From IMG/VR virus record IMGVR_UViG_2711768010_000018: 46,353 nt of DNA, one strand, 5' to 3'. The notes below the pieces were generated by a model, which was not told the DNA's origin, ran no database searches, and worked only from the letters and a program-made list of their open reading frames with translations. A program made the translations under genes and the position numbers. This DNA comes from a virus. Lineage: Duplodnaviria > Heunggongvirae > Uroviricota > Caudoviricetes. Position 1 is the stretch's first letter. Each line of letters starts with the position of its first letter. This document shows, piece by piece, positions 1,553-46,353 of this stretch.

Positions 1553-1741
1553 TCACGAGGACTGAAGTTTCTCGCAATTAAAATTTATCAGTTTTACTTT
1601 CTGCTCTCTGGAAACGCCTGCTTCTTTTTTACCTGAGAGCATTTTTTCGCATTCTGATTTCGTTAGTTTAGATTTTGAATATCTTGTCCAGTTAGTAGGA
1701 GTGCCACCTTCCTTTTCAATAGTGGCGGTAATTTTATACAT
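1553..1741 (-). CDS. ydaC: Small hypothetical protein (YdaC-like), start MYKITATIEKEGG...
   Basis: ORF 1553..1813 in track; the ATG at 1741-1739 overlaps the end of the ralR-like frame (ATGTATAA overlap), typical of a coupled phage early operon. Confidence 0.55.
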   Translation of the reverse strand: MYKITATIEKEGGTPTNWTRYSKSKLTKSECEKMLSGKKEAGVSREQKVKLINFNCEKLQSS

Positions 1742-17590: not shown

Positions 17591-18122
17591 GGGCTGGTTT
17601 ATTGTATGCCAAATGATTATTAAAAAGGTTGTGTTAATAACAAGATCCGAAATAATATGCCTGCATATTTTTATCTTGCTTATATTCTGCATATTGTGCA
17701 TAGCAGGCTCATCCCTGCAATCAAAACTGTATGATGAGTATTTTTTGTTTTCCTTTTTTCCAGTCATCTGATGATGACCTGCTTCTTTTTAATCCGGATC
17801 GACATCAGTTTTTTAAGATAATTCCTGCGAGTTATATGCATAAATGCCACAAACTCCGCATTTTATGTGGTTGGGAGTTGCCGGGCGCGCAGTGAGTTTG
17901 CTAAGAAAACTCCTGCATGGTGAATCCCCCTGTGCGGTGGGGTGATACCATTAACCTTTTCTGTCGCCGACAGGTATCACGAACATTTTGTTCACCGGGA
18001 GGCACCCGGCACCATGCACTTCAATAGATTCTCTCCACATTATGGATATTCTTTCAGAATATCCCACGCAGACTTTGTGTAAATGTTAACAAATGTGCGT
18101 TTTATTTGATCTGATTCGCTGT

Positions 18123-19623: not shown

Positions 19624-20170
19624 TGCCTCCATCATTACGAAAAGTCGTTGCTGCTGCTATTGGTGGCGGAGCAATTGCTATAGCATCAGTGTTAATCACT
19701 GGCCCAAGTGGTAACGATGGTCTGGAAGGTGTCAGCTACATACCATACAAAGATATTGTTGGTGTATGGACTGTATGTCACGGGCATACAGGAAAAGACA
19801 TCATGCTCGGTAAAACGTATACCGAAGCAGNNNNNNNNNNNNNNNNNNNNNNNNNNNNNNNNNNNNNNNNNNNNNNNNNNNATGCAAAACACTCTTGAAT
19901 AAAGACCTTGCCACTGTCGCCAGACAAATTAACCCGTACATCAAAGTCGATATACCGGAAACAACGCGCGGCGCTCTTTACTCATTCGTTTACAACGTGG
20001 GTGCTGGCAATTTCAGAACATCGACGCTTCTTCGCAAAATAAACCAGGGCGATATCAAAGGCGCATGTGACCAGCTACGTCGCTGGACATATGCTGGCGG
20101 TAAGCAATGGAAAGGTCTCATGACTCGTCGTGAGATTGAGCGTGAAATCTGTTTGTGGGGTCAGCAATGA
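19623..20170 (+). CDS. SAR endolysin (phage-21 R-type lysozyme), interrupted by a 51-N run at 19831-19881
   Basis: N-terminal SAR segment ([18 protein letters not shown]), then lysozyme-like sequence; the two track ORFs (19623..19898 and 19895..20170) are the two halves of one gene split by the N-run. Confidence 0.8.
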
Positions 20171-33053: not shown

Positions 33054-34016
33054 GTGAGTTCAGGTGCAAAGGTTATCTCGGCATTTATCCGGGAGACGGT
33101 TGCAGGCACTACGCCAGCAAGTGGTGACTGGAGTTTATTAAAACGCACAAGCTGGGGAGTAAAACCCACCCAGAATAAAGGCGAAAATAATGAGATTGGT
33201 GGCTCCCGGATGGCTCAGGGGGCGACGCCTGGCACTGTGGATGTCGGCGGTGATGTTGGTACCAAATTTCGCTGGGGTCAACATGATGATTTTCTTGCAT
33301 CCTGTTTCGGCGCGGAATGGTCAGGCGATTCTCTGACAATGGGGAATGAGCGAATAACATTTTCTCTGGCGACCTATGCGTCCGATGTCGGAATTGCCTC
33401 TGTCGTCAGAGGAGCGCAGGTTGGCTCATGGAAAATGCAGATCCCTAACGACGGCGATATTACAGCGACCGTAACCTTTGCCGGACTGGACTGGGAATCA
33501 AAGGCCGATGATACGAATTTTATCAAAGGCGAACCTGTGGATAGTGCAGGAAAGCTACGTTATTCGTTTAAGGAGGTTTCAGCAGTAAGCCTGAATGGTG
33601 TTGCCGGAGGTAACGGTTTTTGTATCGACAGTTTTGATATTCAGTTCGATAACAAACTCCAGACACAGCGTTGTATCGGGACTGGCTCGCCTTATGCAGG
33701 AGCAAATATTCCGACTACTTTTACACCGTCCGGTACGGTGACGCTTTCATGGTCTAAAGCCGCGTGGGAAATCTGGAGTAAAACACTGACTGGAGAAACA
33801 GTTCCGTTCAGCTTCACGCTTTCGAATGGAGAGGGGGCATACACTTTCAGTTTCCCGAAGGTTCAGGTGTCAGGTGAATGGCCTGATGGGGGTAATAGCG
33901 ACATTATCCAGGTTCAATTGAGCATTACCGCAGCAGATGAAGCACCTACGATAACCAGAAAAAAAAATTCCCCGGCTGCCGTGATCGCAAAAGCCAGTGC
34001 TGAGGCGATTAGTTGA
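33054..34016 (+). CDS. Major tail (tube) protein, 320 aa (GTG start with AGGAGG RBS)
   Basis: Position upstream of the G/GT chaperone pair and the tape measure gene. Confidence 0.65.
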   Translation: MSSGAKVISAFIRETVAGTTPASGDWSLLKRTSWGVKPTQNKGENNEIGGSRMAQGATPGTVDVGGDVGTKFRWGQHDDFLASCFGAEWSGDSLTMGNERITFSLATYASDVGIASVVRGAQVGSWKMQIPNDGDITATVTFAGLDWESKADDTNFIKGEPVDSAGKLRYSFKEVSAVSLNGVAGGNGFCIDSFDIQFDNKLQTQRCIGTGSPYAGANIPTTFTPSGTVTLSWSKAAWEIWSKTLTGETVPFSFTLSNGEGAYTFSFPKVQVSGEWPDGGNSDIIQVQLSITAADEAPTITRKKNSPAAVIAKASAEAIS

Positions 34017-34064
34017 TTTTCCGTTATTCCTCCTGTGGTACTGCCCTACAGGGGGACGCATTGA

Positions 34065-34526
34065 ATGAGGTTATGGATGTTTATTCTTAATCAGAAAATT
34101 ATCATTGGTGGAGAACGCTGGTTTACGCCAATGAAGGACTTAAAACCTGTAGACGGGTTAAAACTGTTGGTGGCAAGCAGCGATAACGATCAGTATCGCT
34201 CCCGTAATGCATTAATCCGTCGCCACATTGAGAAAATGGATGCCAGTTTGCACGTCGGAACGAAGGAGTTTGATATTTCAAAGGTTTCCGAGGTGGATTC
34301 TGTTGATGATTTACTCATTGATAATGCCGCTCGTTATCTGCTGAAAGACTGGAAAGGGGTTGGTGAACTGGTTAATGGTGTTGAGGTTGCACTGGAATAT
34401 ACGGCAGAACGAGGGATCGCGCTGCTTAAGCAGAATCCAGAGTTGTACTGGCAGATCCTTGCAGAAGCAGCCAGCATCGCCCAGGGTAAAGAGCAGCAGA
34501 AGCAGGATACGATAAAAAAGCCATAG
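34065..34526 (+). CDS. Tail assembly chaperone (lambda G analogue)
   Basis: Located directly upstream of the tape measure gene; ends just after an A-AAA-AAG slippery heptamer. Confidence 0.65.
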   Translation: MRLWMFILNQKIIIGGERWFTPMKDLKPVDGLKLLVASSDNDQYRSRNALIRRHIEKMDASLHVGTKEFDISKVSEVDSVDDLLIDNAARYLLKDWKGVGELVNGVEVALEYTAERGIALLKQNPELYWQILAEAASIAQGKEQQKQDTIKKP

Positions 34527-34834
34527 CTGCCCAGCGGTGGTTATCGGAGTTCGGGGGAGAAAGGGGGGAAAAGGCAAGATGGAAGCGAGAAAAACTCAGG
34601 TTGCCACCGATACCGGAACCAGAAATAGACCCGGTGCTTAAGGAGTTGTTGTACGCCTATTCGGTAATATCCCGTGCCCGACGTTATGCTGGAATGGCTG
34701 GGGTGCCTTTGCCTTTATCTCTGACAGAGATAAATGAATATTTAGCCACTCATCCGGTATTGATTGAGCGCGATGAATTTGAAGCAGTGATCTTTGCACT
34801 GGATGACCAGTATTTTCAGGAGCAGTGTGTGTAG
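34514..34834 (+). CDS. Frameshift extension of the tail assembly chaperone (lambda GT analogue), reached by -1 frameshift at A-AAA-AAG (34514-34520)
   Basis: The -1 frame is open from before the slippery site through 34834 (hand-translated KKAIAAQRWLSEFGGERGEKARWKREKLRLPPIPEP...). Confidence 0.6.
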   Translation, partial: KKAIAAQRWLSEFGGERGEKARWKREKLRLPPIPEPEIDPVLKELLYAYSVISRARRYAGMAGVPLPLSLTEINEYLATHPVLIERDEFEAVIFALDDQYFQEQCV

Positions 34835-34999
34835 TTGTTAATTACGTACACTCTGTTACAGAGATGTGATGGTGTCTTTAATTAAATCGATGATGCTCCT
34901 GGAGAAAAGCATTGCGTGGCCTCGTAATCGCTATATCTACTATTATGTCGCCTGAAACCCACTTCGCGGTGGGTTTTTTGTTGTCAGGAGTTTTAATAA

Positions 35000-37900
35000 A
35001 TGGCAGAGCAAACCTCGCGTCTCGCAATAATTATTGATAGCACTGGAGCGAAAAATAATGCTGACAATCTGACCTCCTCATTAGTCAAAATGACGCAGGC
35101 TGGGGAAACTGCTGCAAATAGCGCAGGGAAAGTGACTAAGGCAACAGAAGATGAGAAGAACGCGCTCGCAAAATTAAAAGCAGCTATTGATCCAGTTGGT
35201 GCCGCAATTGATACTGTCGGTCGACGCTATTCTGAATTAAAGAAATTTTTCGATAAAGGGCTTATTGATAAAGAAGAATATGAATTTCTTGTCCGTAAAC
35301 TTAATGAAACCACAGAGGAATTGAGCGGGGTTGCGCAAGCGCAGAGAGAAGCCGAGAAGGCCGGAAAACTTGCTGCCGCCCAGCAGGAAGCGCAGGCTCA
35401 GGCCTTTCAAAGAATGCTGGACAAGATCGACCCTCTGGCTGCGGCGCTAAGAAATCTTGAACAACAGCATGATGAACTTAATGCTGCGTTTGCATCCGGG
35501 AAAATAAATGGTTCTCAGTTTGAGAATTATAGCCGAAAAATACAGGAAACACGGCGAGAGCTTACCGGAGAGGCTCAGGCAGAGCGAGAAGCAGCAAAAG
35601 CGCATGATGAACAGGTTGTTGCTTTGCAACGTCTGATTGCTCAACTTGATCCTGTCGGAACTGCTTTTAATCGTCTGGTAGAACAACAGAAACAGCTCAA
35701 TGAAGCAAAAGCTAAGGGGATGCTTTCTCCTGAAATGTATGAGGAGCTTTCTGGAAAACTTCGTGCTATGCGGAGTGAGCTTGAGGTTACTCAATCACAA
35801 TTAAGCAAAACCGGAATGTCGGCAAAACAAACGGCTTTTGCTATGCGCATGTTGCCTGTACAAATGACGGATATTGTTGTTGGGTTGTCCACTGGTCAGT
35901 CGCCATTTATGGTGTTAATGCAGCAGGGCGGCCAGCTAAAAGATATGTTCGGTGGGATTGGCCCGGCGATCAAAGGTGTAGGTTCTTATGTGCTGGGATT
36001 AATTAATCCTTTTACCCTGGCCGCAGCAGCCGTTGGGGTCTTAGGACTGGCTTACTATAAAGGCTCTCAGGAGCAGGACGAATTTAATAAATCTCTTATT
36101 CTTACCGGAAATCAGTTGGGGACAACCAGCGGGCAATTGGGCGATATAGCTCAACGTGCCGGGAATGCGGCTGATTCGACAACTGGTGCTGCGGCGGCAG
36201 TATTAAATCAGCTTGTGCGTTCGGGAAAGGTAGCGAGCAGTTCGCTGGAGCAAGTGACGACAGCGATAGTAAAAACGAGCGAAGTAACAGGAATATCAAC
36301 CGAACAACTGGTTAATGACTTCAATGAAATTGCAAAGGATCCTGTCAGTGCCATATCAAAACTTAATGATCAGTACCATTTTCTGACACTTGCGACTTAT
36401 AACCAGATTAAGGCGCTACAGGATGAAGGGAACCAGCAGGAGGCCGCCCGCATTGCGACAGAAGAATACTCATCCTCAATGATCCAGCGCACCAACCAGA
36501 TTAAAGAAAATCTTGGTTATCTTGAGACTGCATGGAAAGCTGTCGCAGACTCCGCAAAATGGGCATGGGATTCCATGCTGGATATTGGCCGTGAGGCCTC
36601 CCTTGATCAAAAAATCTCAGATGTTCTCCGTCAAATTGATGAAATAGAAAAAAATACCCGACCCGGAGTTTTCGGGTTAGGTGGCATTGGAGATGGCGGA
36701 GCTCAAAATAAAAGGCTGGCACGATTAAAGCAGCAATTGGGCGTACTTCAAGCAGAAAAAATTGCTCAGGACGTACTAAATTCATCAATAAACGATTACA
36801 ACAAGCGACAACAGGAAGGAATTGAACTCAGACAGAGAGCAGATGCCTTTTCAAAACAATATCAGACCCGGGAGCAGCAGAGAGCTAGTGAACTTGCAAA
36901 ACTGGAAAAGCTAAAGAATCAGTATTCAAAGGAAGAATATAATAATCTTATCGCTCAAATAAATGAGCGTTATAAAGATCCAAAGCAACCAAAGGCGAAA
37001 GGTTATTCTGATGATGCAGCCCAACGAATGATTGATCATCTGAATCAACAGAATGCGTTACTAAGTTCACAAGCTGAGTTGACCGTTAAATTAAGTTCCT
37101 CTGAACAGGAACTGGTTAAGTGGCGTCAGCGGATTGCCGACCTAGAGTCACGACCATCATCGAAATTAACCCAGGATCAGAAATCGCTTCTCTTACACCG
37201 GGAAGAAATAACCACGTTGATGGAGAAAAATGTTGCGATTGAAAAAAATAACAGGCTAATCAAGGAATCCGCCGAAATAACAGCATGGCGTGATTCATTG
37301 CAGGCTTCGATTGATAATCGTCAGCAGGGGTATGATATTCAGATTGCTGGTTATGGGGTTGGCGATAAAAATCAGCAACGCCAGCAGGAATTACTGCGGA
37401 TTGAACATGGATATAACAATCAGCGTCTGCAACTTGAACGTGACTATGCAGATAAATCCCGTGGAATGTCAGATCATGTTTTTCAAGAGAAAATGCAGGC
37501 TCTGAATGATGCTCTGGAACGGGAAAAAGAAATTGTCAGACAGAAAAACGAGCAGCTCGATATTCAGGCAGGAGACTGGGTTAGTGGTGCCTCCCAGGGA
37601 TTCAATAACTGGCTGGATGACACTAAGGATATCAGTGAGCAGATAAAATCAACCACGACTCAGATGTTTGATGGGATGACCGATGCGCTGGGTGATTTTG
37701 TCACGACAGGCAAGGCAAATTTTCGTTCTTTCGCTACTTCCGTGATTTCGGATCTTAGTCGAATAGCATTAAAGGCTTCAATTACTGGGATTTTCGACAG
37801 CATTAGTAACAGTTCTTCTGGGGGGATTTTAGGAACTATCGGGAGTGCTATTAGTAAATTTATTCCGAATGCAAAGGGCGGTGTTTATGAGTCTCCGTCA

Positions 37901-38233
37901 TTGAGCACGTATTCGAACGGTATTTATGATTCCCCGCAATTTTTTGCTTTTGCAAAAGGGGCTGGTGTTTTTGGTGAGGCTGGACCGGAAGCCATTATGC
38001 CATTAACACGAACTTCCGATGGTTCTCTTGGTGTCAGAGCTATTAATAGTAAAAGTGGTAATGGAGGCGGAGATATTACCTATGCCCCTGTATACCAAAT
38101 CACTATTCAAAATGACGGCCAGAATGGAGAGATTGGCCCTCAGGCAATAAAAGCACTTATGGGGATGGTTGATCAGCGGGTGCAGGGCAATCTGTTAAAT
38201 ATGCGACGTGATGGGGGAATGTTAAGTGGCTAA
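35000..38233 (+). CDS. Tail tape measure protein, 1077 aa
   Basis: Very long, coiled-coil-rich ORF between the chaperone and M/L/K/I/J genes. Confidence 0.9.
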
Positions 38234-44367: not shown

Positions 44368-44388
44368 NNNNNNNNNNNNNNNNNNNNN

Positions 44389-46353
44389 TGCTGCAGGCTC
44401 AGCGCGTGCAGCCAGCACGTCAGCCGGACAGGCCGCGACTTCGGCTCAGGAGGCGTCTTCCAGCGCAGGAACGGCATCAACAAAGGCCACTGAAGCATCA
44501 AAAAGTGCTGCCGCTGCAGAGTCCTCAAAAAGCGCGGCGGCCACCAGTGCCGGTGCGGCGAAAACGTCAGAAACGAATGCTGCAGCGTCACAAAAATCAG
44601 CAGCCACTTCTGCATCCACTGCGACAACGAAAGCGTCAGAAGCCGCCACTTCAGCCAGAGATGCGGCGGCCTCCAAAGAGGCGGCAAAATCATCAGAAAC
44701 GAACGCCTCCACAAGCGCCAGCAGTGCAGCCTCCTCGGCAACGGCGGCAGGAAATTCCGTGAAGGCGGCAAAAACGTCCGAGACGAATGCTAAGTCTTCT
44801 GAAACGGCAGCGGAACAGAGCGCCTCAGCTGCGGCAGACTCTGAGACAGCAGCTGCATCATCGGCCCGTGAGGCGTCCATTAAGGCAGAGGAGGCAGCAG
44901 TCAGTGCCACCGCCGCCGGAAAATCGGCAGAAAGCGCCGCATCATCCGCTTCAACAGCCACAACGAAGGCTGGCGAAGCCACTGAACAGGCCAGCGCAGC
45001 AGCGAGGTCTGCTTCCGCAGCGAAGACATCCGAAACGAACGCGAAAGCGTCGGAAACCAGCGCAGAATCCTCAAAAACGGCTGCCGCATCGTCCGCCAGT
45101 TCGGCGGCGTCATCGGCATCATCTGCGTCTGCTTCAAAAGATGAGGCGACCAGACAGGCGTCAGCAGCGAGGGGCAGCGCCACGACGGCATCCACGAAGG
45201 CGACAGAGGCTGCTGGCAGTGCGGCAGCGGCAGCACAGAGCAAAAGTACGGCGGAATCCGCGGCAACGCGCGCCGAGACAGCAGCAAAACGGGCAGAGGA
45301 TATTGCATCCGCCGTGGCGCTTGAGGATGCGAGCACGACGAAAAAGGGGATAGTACAGCTCAGCAGTGCGACCAACAGCACTTCCGAGTCACAGGCGGCA
45401 ACGCCAAAAGCCGTTAAGGCCGCGTATGACCTGGCTAACGGGAAATACACCGCACAGGATGCAACGACAGCACAGAAAGGGATAGTTCAGCTCAGCAGTG
45501 CGACTAACAGCACTTCCGAGTCACAGGCGGCAACGCCAAAAGCCGTTAAGGCCGCGTATGACCTGGCTAACGGGAAATACACCGCACAGGACGCTACGAC
45601 AGCACAAAAAGGAATTGTCCAGCTCAGTAGTGCAACCAACAGCACATCTGAANNNNNNNNNNNNNNNNNNNNNNNNNNNNNNNNNNNNNNNNNNNNNNNN
45701 NNNNNNNNNNNNNNNNNNNNNNNNNNNNNNNNNNNNNNNNNNNNNNNNNNNNNNNNNNNNNNNNNNNNNNNNNNNNNNNNNNNNNNNNNNNNNNNNNNNN
45801 NNNNNNNNNNNNNNNNNNNNNNNNNNNNNNNNNNNNNNNNNNNNNNNNNNNNNNNNNNNNNNNNNNNNNNNNNNNNNNNNNNNNNNNNNNNNNNNNNNNN
45901 NNNNNNNNNNNNNNNNNNNNNNNNNNNNNNNNNNNNNNNNNNNNNNCAAATTTTGCCTGGGTTAATACATCTGGTGATACTTACGATATTTACGTTGCAA
46001 TCGGAAATTATGCGACTGGTGTAAATATTCAATGGGATTATACCAGTAATGCCAGCGTGACGATTCATACGTCACCAGCATATTCTGCTAATAAGCCGGA
46101 AGGGTTAACGGACGGTACAGTTTATTCACTCTATACGCCATCAGAGCAGTTTTATCCGCCTGGCGCACCAATCCCGTGGCCATCAGATACCGTTCCGTCT
46201 GGCTATGCCCTGATGCAGGGGCAGGCTTTTGACAAATCTGCATACCCGAAACTTGCAGCGGCTTATCCGTCAGGCGTGATCCCTGATATGCGTGGCTGGA
46301 CGATTAAGGGCAAACCTGCCAGTGGTCGGGCCGTATTGTCTCAGGAACAGGAC
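44389..46353 (+). CDS. stfR: Side tail fibre protein (Stf family), partial at both ends: 5' end lost in the 21-N run, internal 294-N run (45653-45946), 3' end beyond the window
   Basis: Ala/Ser/Thr-rich repetitive region matching lambda Stf as recalled ([13 protein letters not shown]...KTSETNA...); after the second N-run the hand-translated frame ([15 protein letters not shown]...[64 protein letters not shown]) is open to the window end. Confidence 0.85.
45343..45652 (+). repeat. Tandem 132-bp (44-codon) repeats within stf, at least 2.3 copies, continuing into the N-run
   Basis: Units beginning near 45343, 45475 and 45607 encode [44 protein letters not shown] with a few synonymous differences. 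Confidence 0.85.

What the first reader, a model, noticed from the sequence alone, without database searches (positions are those of the whole stretch)
34514..34520. Programmed -1 frameshift site (A-AAA-AAG) linking the tail assembly chaperone ORFs
The G-like ORF ends at TAG 34524-34526, immediately after the dnaX-type slippery heptamer A-AAA-AAG. The -1 frame is open across the site and continues to 34834, so a G/GT-type fusion is expected. This is the conserved arrangement in lambda-like tail modules and supports a functional tail assembly pathway.
Basis: partly seen in the sequence, partly recalled or inferred. Interest (0 to 1): 0.35.

Follow-up and report, generated by a model that had tools for sequence, protein, structure and literature searches.

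The report
Tail chaperone G/GT frameshift site
A Rac-like E. coli prophage carries the classic slippery sequence that lets ribosomes occasionally slip back one base and make a longer tail-assembly chaperone; the call is well supported but ordinary, and public records do not annotate it.

Summary
A AAA AAG lies at 34514-34520, in phase with ORF 34065/34077..34526 (AAA AAG CCA TAG). The -1 frame is open from 34491 to the TAG at 34832-34834, giving a 252/256-aa fusion.

The heptamer alone is not unusual (24 copies, about 15 expected). The arrangement is: the ORF pair sits between the tail tube and tape measure genes. In 175 of 176 related loci, down to 55% identity, the downstream ORF is in the -1 frame, with homology starting at the heptamer. 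No -1-frame start codon precedes the site.

Synonymous sites are near saturation, yet the slip AAG codon never varies. Two lineages carry G GGA AAG, lambda's heptamer, at the same position and phase, with the preceding wobble base changed A to G. The conceptual fusion aligns end to end with PHROG 313, "tail assembly chaperone" (E 6e-51).

No conserved RNA stimulator was found, so it is not a full dnaX-type cassette. There is no sequence similarity to lambda G or T.

Verdict: a lambda-style G/GT programmed -1 ribosomal frameshift, a new and unannotated member of a well-known kind. Efficiency and requirement are untested. Low to moderate interest.

The parts
34065..34526 (+). G-like tail assembly chaperone ORF. 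It is 153 aa from the ATG at 34065. The Met conserved in relatives is the ATG at 34077, which gives 149 aa. Stop is TAG 34524-34526.
   Evidence: ORF list and translation. PHROG 313 'tail assembly chaperone', E 4e-46. Homologue alignments start at M5, which is 34077. AF2 model pLDDT 77, with BFVD matches to annotated tail assembly or tape-measure chaperones. Public records call it 'YdaY'.
34514..34520 (+). Slippery heptamer A AAA AAG, phased X XXY YYZ in the G frame and followed by CC.
   Evidence: Read directly. Present at the same position and phase in 174 of 176 related loci, and replaced by G GGA AAG in the other 2. The AAG codon is invariant while the 4 other invariant-Lys columns mix AAA and AAG.
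34491..34523 (+). Overlap window in which a -1 shift yields the long fusion. It is bounded upstream by the -1-frame stop TAA 34488-34490 and downstream by the zero-frame TAG.
   Evidence: Translations of both frames. The -1 frame has no ATG, GTG or TTG in this interval, here or in 12 representative relatives.
34520..34834 (+). T-like segment: 104 codons in the -1 frame plus the stop TAG 34832-34834. It would be expressed only as the C-terminal extension of G, giving a GT fusion of 256 aa (252 from the ATG at 34077).
   Evidence: Translation. Homologue in the -1 frame in 175 of 176 loci, with tblastn homology beginning at post-slip residues 1-4 in all but 1 of the 48 distinct sequences tabulated. 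pN/pS 0.14-0.39 in this frame, with third-position bias already in the first 27 codons. The fusion aligns at residues 5-253 to PHROG 313 positions 13-246 of 258, E 6.3e-51. Gene callers list it as 'hypothetical protein' with inconsistent starts.
34504..34507 (+). AGGA, a possible weak Shine-Dalgarno-like element 6 nt upstream of the heptamer. Its role is unproven.
   Evidence: Read directly. AGGA, AGGAG or AAGGAG occupy the same place in most relatives but not in L013, and Gln/Lys-Glu/Asp coding also explains them (alignment). PMC4066793 searched for SD-like stimulators 6-17 nt upstream, so this lies at the edge of that range.
33054..34016 (+). Tail tube (major tail) protein gene, the upstream neighbour. 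Context only.
   Evidence: PF18906 Phage_tube_2, E 9e-32.
35000..38233 (+). Tape measure protein gene, the downstream neighbour and presumed client of G/GT. Context only.
   Evidence: PF06791, PF09718 and PF24622. PHROG 24.

Best explanation
This is a programmed -1 ribosomal frameshift of the lambda G/GT type.

Most ribosomes translating the chaperone gene (34065/34077-34526) read AAA AAG CCA and stop at the TAG, making the short protein G. A small fraction slips instead. With the tRNA-Lys pair on AAA-AAG (34515-34520), they slip back one base onto A-AAA-AA and continue from G34520 in the -1 frame. This adds 104 residues (AIAAQRWLSEFGGE...) up to the TAG at 34832-34834, making GT.

By analogy with lambda (PMC5009743), the shared G part would coat the tape measure protein encoded just downstream. 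The T part would recruit the tail tube protein encoded just upstream. The slip frequency would fix a high G:GT ratio, and neither protein would end up in the virion.

Shown here: the anatomy, the coding status of both frames, the lack of an independent start for T, and selective conservation of a slip-competent heptamer. Inferred, not shown: that slippage occurs, its efficiency, and the protein-protein roles. The bare heptamer gave about 0.3% in an E. coli reporter and about 4% or more with stimulators (PMC4066793 supplement). The lambda G:GT ratio is about 30:1.
For: 1. Phase and open frame were read directly.

2. Synteny is tube - G - T(-1) - tape measure - M - L - K - I - J.

3. PHROG 313 'tail assembly chaperone' matches G at E 4e-46. 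The conceptual fusion matches in one stretch over profile positions 13-246 of 258 at E 6.3e-51. BFVD fold matches are weak to modest and go mostly to annotated tail assembly or tape-measure chaperones, several of them 230-270 aa long.

4. Among 176 loci from Escherichia, Shigella, Citrobacter, Klebsiella, Raoultella, Siccibacter, Scandinavium and Pantoea (G identity 55-100%), 175 have the T homologue in the -1 frame. Homology starts at the heptamer. The zero-frame stop wanders: 1, 7, 25 or 35 codons after AAG.

5. The coding frame switches at the site. pN/pS is 0.10-0.35 upstream in frame 0 and 0.14-0.39 downstream in frame -1. The first 27 post-slip codons vary 15/14/25 at -1-frame positions 1/2/3.

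6. No start codon exists in the -1 frame between its upstream stop and the site in any of 13 representatives. L083 and L015 have none before codon 58.

7. There is a nucleotide-level constraint. Pairwise pS is 0.65-0.89 against the 9 more distant of the 12 relatives. Of 62 columns with an invariant amino acid, only 4 have an invariant codon, and the slip AAG is one of them. The other 4 invariant-Lys columns all mix AAA and AAG.

8. The heptamer shows covariation. It is NTA-AAA-AAG in 11 representatives and GTG-GGA-AAG in 2. G GGA AAG is lambda's own heptamer. It has nearly the same measured efficiency as A AAA AAG (0.28 vs 0.29% bare, 3.8 vs 4.3% and 43 vs 39% with stimulators; PMC4066793 supplement).

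9. The 3' CC context was reported as the most shift-prone after A_AAA_AAG (PMC5009743).
Against: There is no experimental evidence for the fusion protein at this locus or in this family.

No conserved downstream stem-loop or pseudoknot was found. The window fold has z = 0.2, and the alignment consensus is -4.2 kcal/mol with negligible covariation. The local 9-bp hairpin at 34523-34544 starts only 2 nt after the heptamer and is not conserved. The bare heptamer gives only about 0.3% in a reporter, so the real efficiency could be well below lambda's.

Pfam-A and NCBIfam give no significant match for G. PDB gives none. There is no detectable similarity to lambda G or T.

No database record examined annotates a joined CDS here, not even in distant relatives named 'tail assembly chaperone'.
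Confidence: 0.88

Rival explanations
1. The fusion is made by transcriptional slippage, not ribosomal slippage. RNA polymerase would stutter on the A6 run (34514-34519) and add one A, so that standard translation of that mRNA subset reads K-K-A-I-A and produces the same GT protein.
For: A one-A insertion would give exactly the same product (sequence logic). Public assemblies contain run-length variants: A5-type reads through the other (+1) frame in P0002, P0004 and P0006, and a reading with G's ETVKK C-terminus and T in one frame in P0128. Homopolymers are slippage-prone in principle.
Against: Efficient bacterial transcriptional slippage is described for runs of about 9 A or T (PMC5009743), and this run is only 6. 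Raoultella (L012) and Pantoea (L014) have G GGA AAG at the same place, with no homopolymer longer than 3 but a classical ribosomal slip heptamer. The phase-specific X XXY YYZ covariation (GTA AAA AAG to GTG GGA AAG) has meaning only for tRNA re-pairing. The assembly variants are most simply sequencing errors.
Confidence: 0.04
2. There is no recoding. T would be an independent small gene, started for example at the TTG at 34601 as PGAP annotates (77 aa) or the TTG at 34649 as in the record of phage SPF_0923. The heptamer would be just a Lys-Lys coding accident near the end of G.
For: Gene callers annotate free-standing ORFs here. AAGGAG precedes the TTG at 34649, with a 3-nt spacer. The heptamer string itself is common in the window.
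Against: The candidate starts are not conserved. L083 and L015 have no start codon in the T frame before the internal Met58. The 27 codons upstream of the TTG at 34601 are conserved as protein in the -1 frame, starting right at the heptamer (A[IL]EAQKWLSEFGGE.GEKAKW). Called N-termini differ from record to record. The slip codons are frozen at synonymous sites. The fusion matches PHROG 313 in a single co-linear stretch.
Confidence: 0.04
3. The site is a decaying relic. The prophage tail module would no longer be functional, and the arrangement would persist only through recent common descent, without selection.
For: E. coli K-12 carries a truncated remnant of this very gene (ydaY), with the slip site and T ORF still present in a defective Rac prophage. 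Some relatives carry frame-breaking changes: L053, and the 35-nt deletion fusion in P0001. The window has masked N runs in the tail fibre region.
Against: All head and tail ORFs in the window are intact. The 1201-nt stretch 33900-35100, which includes the junction, is 100% identical to a deposited phage genome and 98% identical to nine vB_EcoS phage records. Conservation holds across genera whose synonymous sites are near saturation, with pN/pS far below 1 in both frames. That requires ongoing purifying selection.
Confidence: 0.03

Closest known systems
Bacteriophage lambda G / G-T programmed -1 frameshift (Levin, Hendrix & Casjens 1993; Xu, Hendrix & Duda 2004, 2013, 2014, as summarised in PMC5009743)
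   Same: Two overlapping ORFs lie between the major tail gene and the tape measure gene, followed by M-L-K-I-J homologues. [quoted passage not shown] An A-site AAG Lys codon is involved. Two relatives (L012, L014) use lambda's exact heptamer G GGA AAG.
   Different: The heptamer here is A AAA AAG, not G GGA AAG. The zero-frame stop is 1 codon after the site, against 5 in lambda. The T part is 104 aa against about 139 aa in lambda. There is no detectable sequence similarity to lambda G or T by BLASTP or hhalign. The head module is P22-like, not lambda-like.
E. coli dnaX gamma/tau -1 frameshift cassette
   Same: The slippery heptamer A AAA AAG is identical and is decoded by the single E. coli tRNA-Lys (PMC5009743).
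   Different: dnaX adds an SD-like AGGGAG 10 nt upstream and a stem-loop about 6 nt downstream to reach about 50%, and there the shift truncates the protein. Here no conserved downstream structure exists. Only a 4-nt AGGA lies 6 nt upstream. The shift extends the protein, presumably at a low rate.
PHROG 313 'tail assembly chaperone', with phrog_1189 for the orphan T ORFs and the newer Pfam entry PF27119 listed for YdaY-like proteins
   Same: Direct profile membership: G at E 4e-46, the fusion at E 6.3e-51 over profile positions 13-246 of 258, and T alone matches phrog_1189 at E 1.4e-36. All G homologues in the large protein database carry PF27119.
   Different: The PHROG label is an annotation, not an experiment. 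phrog_1189 is listed as 'unknown function' because T ORFs are called as separate genes. PF27119 is not in the local Pfam copy, so its description could not be read.
A_AAA_AAG_25 prophage cluster (ECs1801, 'tail assembly chaperone; [true]') in Sharma et al. 2014, PMC4066793 Table S4
   Same: It is an E. coli prophage tail assembly chaperone using A AAA AAG and producing a longer product by -1 frameshifting.
   Different: I could not retrieve the ECs1801 sequence, so whether it belongs to the same protein family as this locus is unknown.

Membership tests
G/GT-type tail assembly chaperone frameshift of long-tailed phages | A pair of overlapping ORFs located between the major tail (tube) gene and the tape measure gene | tested here: met
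   Tube gene 33054-34016 (PF18906), G 34065-34526, T to 34834, tape measure 35000-38233 (PF06791, PF09718). M, L, K, I and J follow.
G/GT-type tail assembly chaperone frameshift of long-tailed phages | A slippery sequence in the overlap, in the correct phase for the shift that joins the two ORFs | tested here: met
   A AAA AAG at 34514-34520 is phased X XXY YYZ. It is the only such heptamer in the 12-codon permissive window.
G/GT-type tail assembly chaperone frameshift of long-tailed phages | The downstream ORF lacks its own conserved start and is conserved as protein right from the shift site | tested here: met
   No start codon lies in the -1 frame before the site in 13 of 13 representatives. 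Later candidate starts are not conserved. Protein conservation and third-position bias begin at post-slip codon 1.
G/GT-type tail assembly chaperone frameshift of long-tailed phages | The frameshift arrangement is conserved among relatives despite sequence divergence | tested here: met
   175 of 176 loci have T in the -1 frame. The heptamer is A AAA AAG in 174 and G GGA AAG in 2. The slip AAG is invariant at near-saturated synonymous divergence. In phage relatives at 31-55% identity, the AAG codon at the homologous junction (Gungnir39, Pseudomonas phages) or in the in-phase heptamer (TCUAN1) is still kept.
G/GT-type tail assembly chaperone frameshift of long-tailed phages | The first ORF encodes a tail assembly (tape measure) chaperone | tested here: met
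   PHROG 313, E 4e-46 for G and 6e-51 for the fusion. BFVD fold hits to annotated chaperones, E 4e-4 to 1e-1, TM 0.4-0.55. This rests on annotation-level labels only. Pfam-A, NCBIfam and PDB gave nothing significant.
G/GT-type tail assembly chaperone frameshift of long-tailed phages | Both a short and a frameshift-extended protein are made, at a high short:long ratio, and both are needed for tail assembly | not testable with these tools
   This needs protein detection and genetics. Only literature values for the bare heptamer are available (about 0.3%).
Lambda gpG / gpT protein families (sequence homology) | Detectable sequence similarity to lambda G and T | tested here: not met
   BLASTP found no alignment at E <= 100 for G or T. 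hhalign of the G alignment against lambda G gave probability 0.1%.
dnaX-type three-element frameshift cassette | Heptamer A AAA AAG | tested here: met
dnaX-type three-element frameshift cassette | A stimulatory stem-loop a few nucleotides (about 5-9) downstream, conserved among relatives | tested here: not met
   The 100-nt downstream fold has z = 0.2. The local hairpin starts 2 nt after the heptamer. The RNAalifold consensus over 12 relatives is -4.2 kcal/mol with a covariation term of -0.14.
dnaX-type three-element frameshift cassette | An SD-like element about 10 nt upstream of the heptamer | tested here: inconclusive
   Only AGGA at 34504-34507, with a 6-nt spacer. AGGAG or AAGGAG occur in some relatives and nothing in L013. 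The pattern is confounded by Gln/Lys-Glu/Asp coding (alignment).

The most novel reading that the evidence does not exclude
The family may reach a lambda-like frameshift level with no RNA stimulator at all, relying only on an invariant A-site AAG plus local context (3' CC, a weak upstream AGGA, and in 154 of 176 loci a zero-frame stop one codon later). The P-site half of the motif would then be freely exchangeable. It reads A AAA AAG, G GGA AAG, G GAA AAG in Pseudomonas phages, and C GCA AAG-TAA in Erwinia phage Gungnir39. If so, this family would be a natural allelic series for dissecting how minimal a functional -1 site can be. A side possibility is that the K-12 Rac remnant (ydaY plus the T ORF) still makes a frameshifted product.
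Probability: 0.12. Interest if true: 0.45.

Novelty: new member of a known kind. Interest (0 to 1): 0.25.

Why it matters
The biology is textbook. G/GT frameshifting is conserved in nearly all long-tailed phages, so nothing here would surprise a specialist.

The practical value is in annotation. DNA matching this region occurs in 1075 of 5426 complete E. coli genomes, and 710 of them carry at least 80% of it. It is also found in many Citrobacter and Klebsiella prophages. In every record examined it is labelled 'protein YdaY' plus 'hypothetical protein', with no ribosomal slippage. The PGAP records examined give it a truncated start copied from the K-12 pseudogene fragment.

Recognising it assigns a function to the ydaY family and to PHROG 1189: tail assembly chaperone G and the T extension. 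The natural swap between A AAA AAG and G GGA AAG at one homologous position, with a compensating change in the preceding wobble base, is a clean evolutionary confirmation. It shows that the two heptamers found equally efficient in reporters are interchangeable in vivo.

Tried and rejected
- **Bare-heptamer statistics.** The string is not enriched enough to mean anything (24 copies against 14.7 expected). I dropped it as evidence in favour of phase and context tests.
- **Downstream stimulatory RNA.** The single-sequence fold has z = 0.2, and the 12-sequence consensus fold shows no conserved structure. Rfam has no family here; the only hits in the window are RalA and STnc100, both elsewhere.
- **Homology to lambda G and T.** BLASTP and hhalign found nothing.
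- **Curated libraries and solved structures.** Pfam-A and NCBIfam found nothing significant for G. The only hit was a sub-threshold Phage_TAC_18 match on the T part (E 0.003, 18 bits against a cutoff of 27). PDB found nothing by sequence or by fold (best E 1.3).
- **A second viral-contig scan with P0119.** It returned no confirmed relatives.
- **Literature.** No paper in the held library links ydaY or Rac to a tail chaperone frameshift.
- **Joined CDS in public records.** I looked in the window's match and in distant phage relatives (Aurca01, Gungnir39, phiPSA1, TCUAN1). None carried a join flag.
- **Not run.** I did not predict the T-domain structure or run the exhaustive protein search, because PHROG co-linearity already answered the membership question.

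Full report
**What is in the sequence**

The window reads ...CAG GAT ACG ATA AAA AAG CCA TAG... in the frame of ORF 34065-34526. The run AAAAAAG occupies 34514-34520 and is phased A AAA AAG, which is the phase needed for a tandem -1 slip.

The zero-frame stop is TAG 34524-34526, one codon after the heptamer.

The -1 frame is closed by a TAA at 34488-34490. It then stays open across the site until TAG 34832-34834. A slip at the heptamer would append 104 residues (AIAAQRWLSEFGGERGEKARWKREKL...) to the 152 residues already made.

The permissive overlap is only 12 codons, and this is its only XXXYYYZ heptamer. The heptamer string is not informative on its own: there are 24 copies in the window against 14.7 +/- 4.2 in shuffles.

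I then checked every in-phase XXXYYYZ heptamer in ORFs of 100 or more codons. Among those of the classes I listed (A AAA AAN, G GGA AAG and similar), the site at 34514 is the only one in a credible gene whose -1 frame runs past the zero-frame stop, by 308 nt. The one other case lies in a spurious ORF that overlaps a real gene.

**Context**

The window is a Rac-type E. coli prophage. It holds the RalA antitoxin sRNA. The gene here is what databases call ydaY.

E. coli K-12 retains only the part of the searched 33900-35100 stretch that lies from 34175 onward, next to ynaA and ynaK.

The structural module is complete:
- terminase, portal and a P22-like coat protein;
- tail terminator and tail tube (33054-34016, PF18906);
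- the ORF pair;
- tape measure (35000-38233);
- homologues of lambda M, L, K, I and J.

The 1201-nt stretch 33900-35100, which includes the junction, is 100% identical to the deposited genome of Salmonella phage SPF_0923. It is 98% identical to nine vB_EcoS phage records.

**Identity of the proteins**

The first ORF matches PHROG 313 'tail assembly chaperone' at E 4e-46. That profile is 258 positions long.

The conceptual G-T fusion aligns to it in one stretch, residues 5-253 to positions 13-246, with a better score (E 6.3e-51). The family model therefore spans both the G-like and T-like parts in the same order as the conceptual fusion.

T alone falls in phrog_1189, 'unknown function'. That is what happens when gene callers treat the -1 ORF as a separate gene.

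An AlphaFold model of G (pLDDT 77) gives weak to modest BFVD matches (E 4e-4 to 1e-1, TM 0.4-0.55). They go mostly to proteins annotated as tail assembly or tape-measure chaperones.

Several searches found nothing useful:
- PDB gave no match by sequence or by fold.
- Pfam-A gave no match for G, and only a sub-threshold Phage_TAC_18 match on the T part of the fusion.
- NCBIfam gave no match.
- No similarity to lambda G or T was found.

That last result is expected for this notoriously divergent class. It does mean the locus cannot be filed under the lambda gpG and gpT sequence families.

**Comparative test**

I collected 175 related loci from species-representative genomes and IMG/VR. With the window, that makes 176.

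- In 175 of them the T homologue lies in the -1 frame relative to G.
- The exception, L053, has a 1-nt shorter G run inside T.
- tblastn homology to T begins at post-slip residues 1-4 in all but 1 of the 48 distinct sequences tabulated.
- The heptamer is A AAA AAG in 174 loci and G GGA AAG in 2: Raoultella L012 and Pantoea L014. Position and phase are the same.
- The zero-frame stop wanders, at 1, 7, 25 or 35 codons after AAG.

Codon-aligned comparison of 13 representatives shows purifying selection in frame 0 upstream (pN/pS 0.10-0.35). It also shows purifying selection in frame -1 downstream (0.14-0.39). The first 27 post-slip codons already show the third-position bias of the -1 frame, at 15/14/25.

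None of the 13 has any ATG, GTG or TTG in the -1 frame between its upstream stop and the site. Later candidate starts are scattered. L083 and L015 have none before the internal conserved Met58. The conserved N-terminal half of T therefore cannot be made by independent initiation.

**Nucleotide-level constraint**

Pairwise synonymous divergence from the window is 0.65-0.89 for the 9 more distant of the 12 relatives.

Of 62 columns with an invariant amino acid, only 4 keep an invariant codon. One of those is the AAG of the heptamer. The other four invariant-Lys columns all mix AAA and AAG.

The three codons at the site are (A/G)TA-AAA-AAG in 11 representatives and GTG-GGA-AAG in 2. When the first Lys codon becomes GGA, the wobble base of the preceding Val codon changes from A to G. 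This restores X XXY YYZ.

G GGA AAG is lambda's own heptamer. In E. coli reporters the two heptamers are practically equivalent (PMC4066793 supplement):

| Heptamer | No stimulator | IS911 stimulators | IS3 pseudoknot |
|---|---|---|---|
| A AAA AAG | 0.29% | 4.3% | 39% |
| G GGA AAG | 0.28% | 3.8% | 43% |

This swap also argues against transcriptional slippage, because G GGA AAG has no homopolymer run.

More distant phage relatives (31-55% identity) still have G and T as two pieces in different frames. An AAG codon at the junction is kept, but the P-site half differs:
- G GAA AAG CC in Pseudomonas phages;
- C GCA AAG TAA in Erwinia phage Gungnir39;
- G GGA AAG, 29 codons before the stop, in Acinetobacter phage TCUAN1.

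These last readings are my inference from alignment of the junctions.

**Stimulators**

The 100 nt downstream fold no better than shuffles (z = 0.2). The local hairpin at 34523-34544 begins only 2 nt after the heptamer. It is not conserved: the RNAalifold consensus is -4.2 kcal/mol with essentially no covariation.

Upstream there is only AGGA, 6 nt before the site. It is partly conserved, but coding also explains it.

The 3' CC (34521-22) matches the context reported as most shift-prone after A_AAA_AAG (PMC5009743).

The site therefore shares dnaX's heptamer but not its cassette. Its efficiency is unknown. I expect something between the bare-heptamer value of about 0.3% and lambda's few percent.

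**Mechanism and comparison**

The best explanation is a lambda-type G/GT programmed -1 ribosomal frameshift, with confidence about 0.88.

By analogy with lambda (PMC5009743), G and the G part of GT would bind the tape measure protein. The T part would recruit the tube protein. The slip rate would set the ratio. This functional part is inferred, not tested.

The rivals each get a few percent, for the reasons above:
- transcriptional slippage on A6;
- an independently initiated T;
- a relic without selection.

**Novelty**

The phenomenon is well known. The instance is unannotated. Every public record examined, including PGAP RefSeq, GenBank phage records and distant relatives named 'tail assembly chaperone', lists separate CDSs without a join. 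No paper in the held library connects ydaY with it.

DNA matching this region occurs in 1075 of 5426 complete E. coli genomes.

I rate it a new member of a known kind, with interest about 0.25.

Noticed in passing
window 33959-33967: [quoted passage not shown] Close E. coli relatives carry A9, A7 (with a different following codon) or A8 (frame-broken). Citrobacter, Klebsiella and other relatives lack the run and end in a different, Ig-like C-terminus. Runs of 9 A are long enough for transcriptional slippage (PMC5009743), so C-terminal heterogeneity of the tube protein is conceivable, but the run is not conserved.
   Followed up: partly
window 34835-34999 (hairpin 34954-34977): The 165-nt spacer between T and the tape measure gene ends in a terminator-like hairpin plus a T run (GAAACCCAC-TTCG-CGGTGGGTTTT TTGTTG), just before the tape measure SD. 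Relatives with only a 29-39 nt spacer (L084, L014, L015) also have a hairpin plus T run there. Others have 485-1443 nt inserts, for example an Ail/Lom outer-membrane gene in L003. This looks like a moron insertion slot with a positionally conserved terminator inside the late operon.
   Followed up: partly
window 34167-34526, and K-12 Rac: The RefSeq (PGAP) records examined annotate the chaperone gene as 'protein YdaY', starting at the TTG at 34167 (119 aa). The model appears to be the 5'-truncated K-12 Rac remnant. K-12 strains match the searched 33900-35100 stretch only from 34175 onward, so the defective Rac prophage still carries the slip site, the T ORF and the tape measure 5' end (ynaA). 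The conserved start is the ATG at 34077 or 34065.
   Followed up: partly
window 34461-34470 and 34496-34505 (protein P0001): P0001 is an E. coli protein of 240 aa (5 member sequences). It reads ...YWQILAEA|GYDKKAIAAQ..., which is what a 35-nt deletion between the two 10-nt direct repeats GCAGAAGCAG would give. The deletion fuses G in frame to T and removes free G (repeat coordinates read). By analogy with lambda, such an allele should be defective in tail assembly.
   Followed up: partly
L003, L009, L070-L080 and others; equivalent to window 34484-34490: Seventeen relatives have a second in-phase heptamer, G GGA AAA, ten codons upstream of the main site. Their -1 frame is already open there. 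The window has GGT AAA instead, which creates the -1-frame stop TAA at 34488. This could be a minor alternative slip site in those phages.
   Followed up: partly
L178 (Erwinia phage Gungnir39), L177 and L179 (Pseudomonas phages Aurca01 and phiPSA1), L180 (Acinetobacter phage TCUAN1): Phage relatives at 31-55% identity to the query keep the G/-1 T arrangement, but at the homologous junction the motif is non-canonical or shifted. It is C GCA AAG followed directly by TAA in Gungnir39, G GAA AAG CC in the Pseudomonas phages, and G GGA AAG 29 codons before the stop in TCUAN1. None is annotated as a joined CDS.
   Followed up: partly
window 19831-19881, 40647, 44368-44388, 45653-45946: There are runs of N (masked or unresolved sequence), including inside the tail fibre region at the right end of the prophage. 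ORF calls there are unreliable.
   Followed up: no
window 1557-1735 and 17885-18071: Rfam gathering-score hits: the RalA antitoxin sRNA (225 bits), which marks the Rac-type RalR/RalA toxin-antitoxin system, and the sRNA STnc100 (87 bits).
   Followed up: no
window 34563-34568 (L053): The G6 run inside the T segment is one base shorter in IMG/VR locus L053, which puts the rest of T out of frame. Several Logan assemblies also show A5 variants of the slip site itself, reading into the +1 frame (P0002, P0004, P0006). These are probably homopolymer sequencing errors, which is a caution when using assemblies to judge recoding sites.
   Followed up: no
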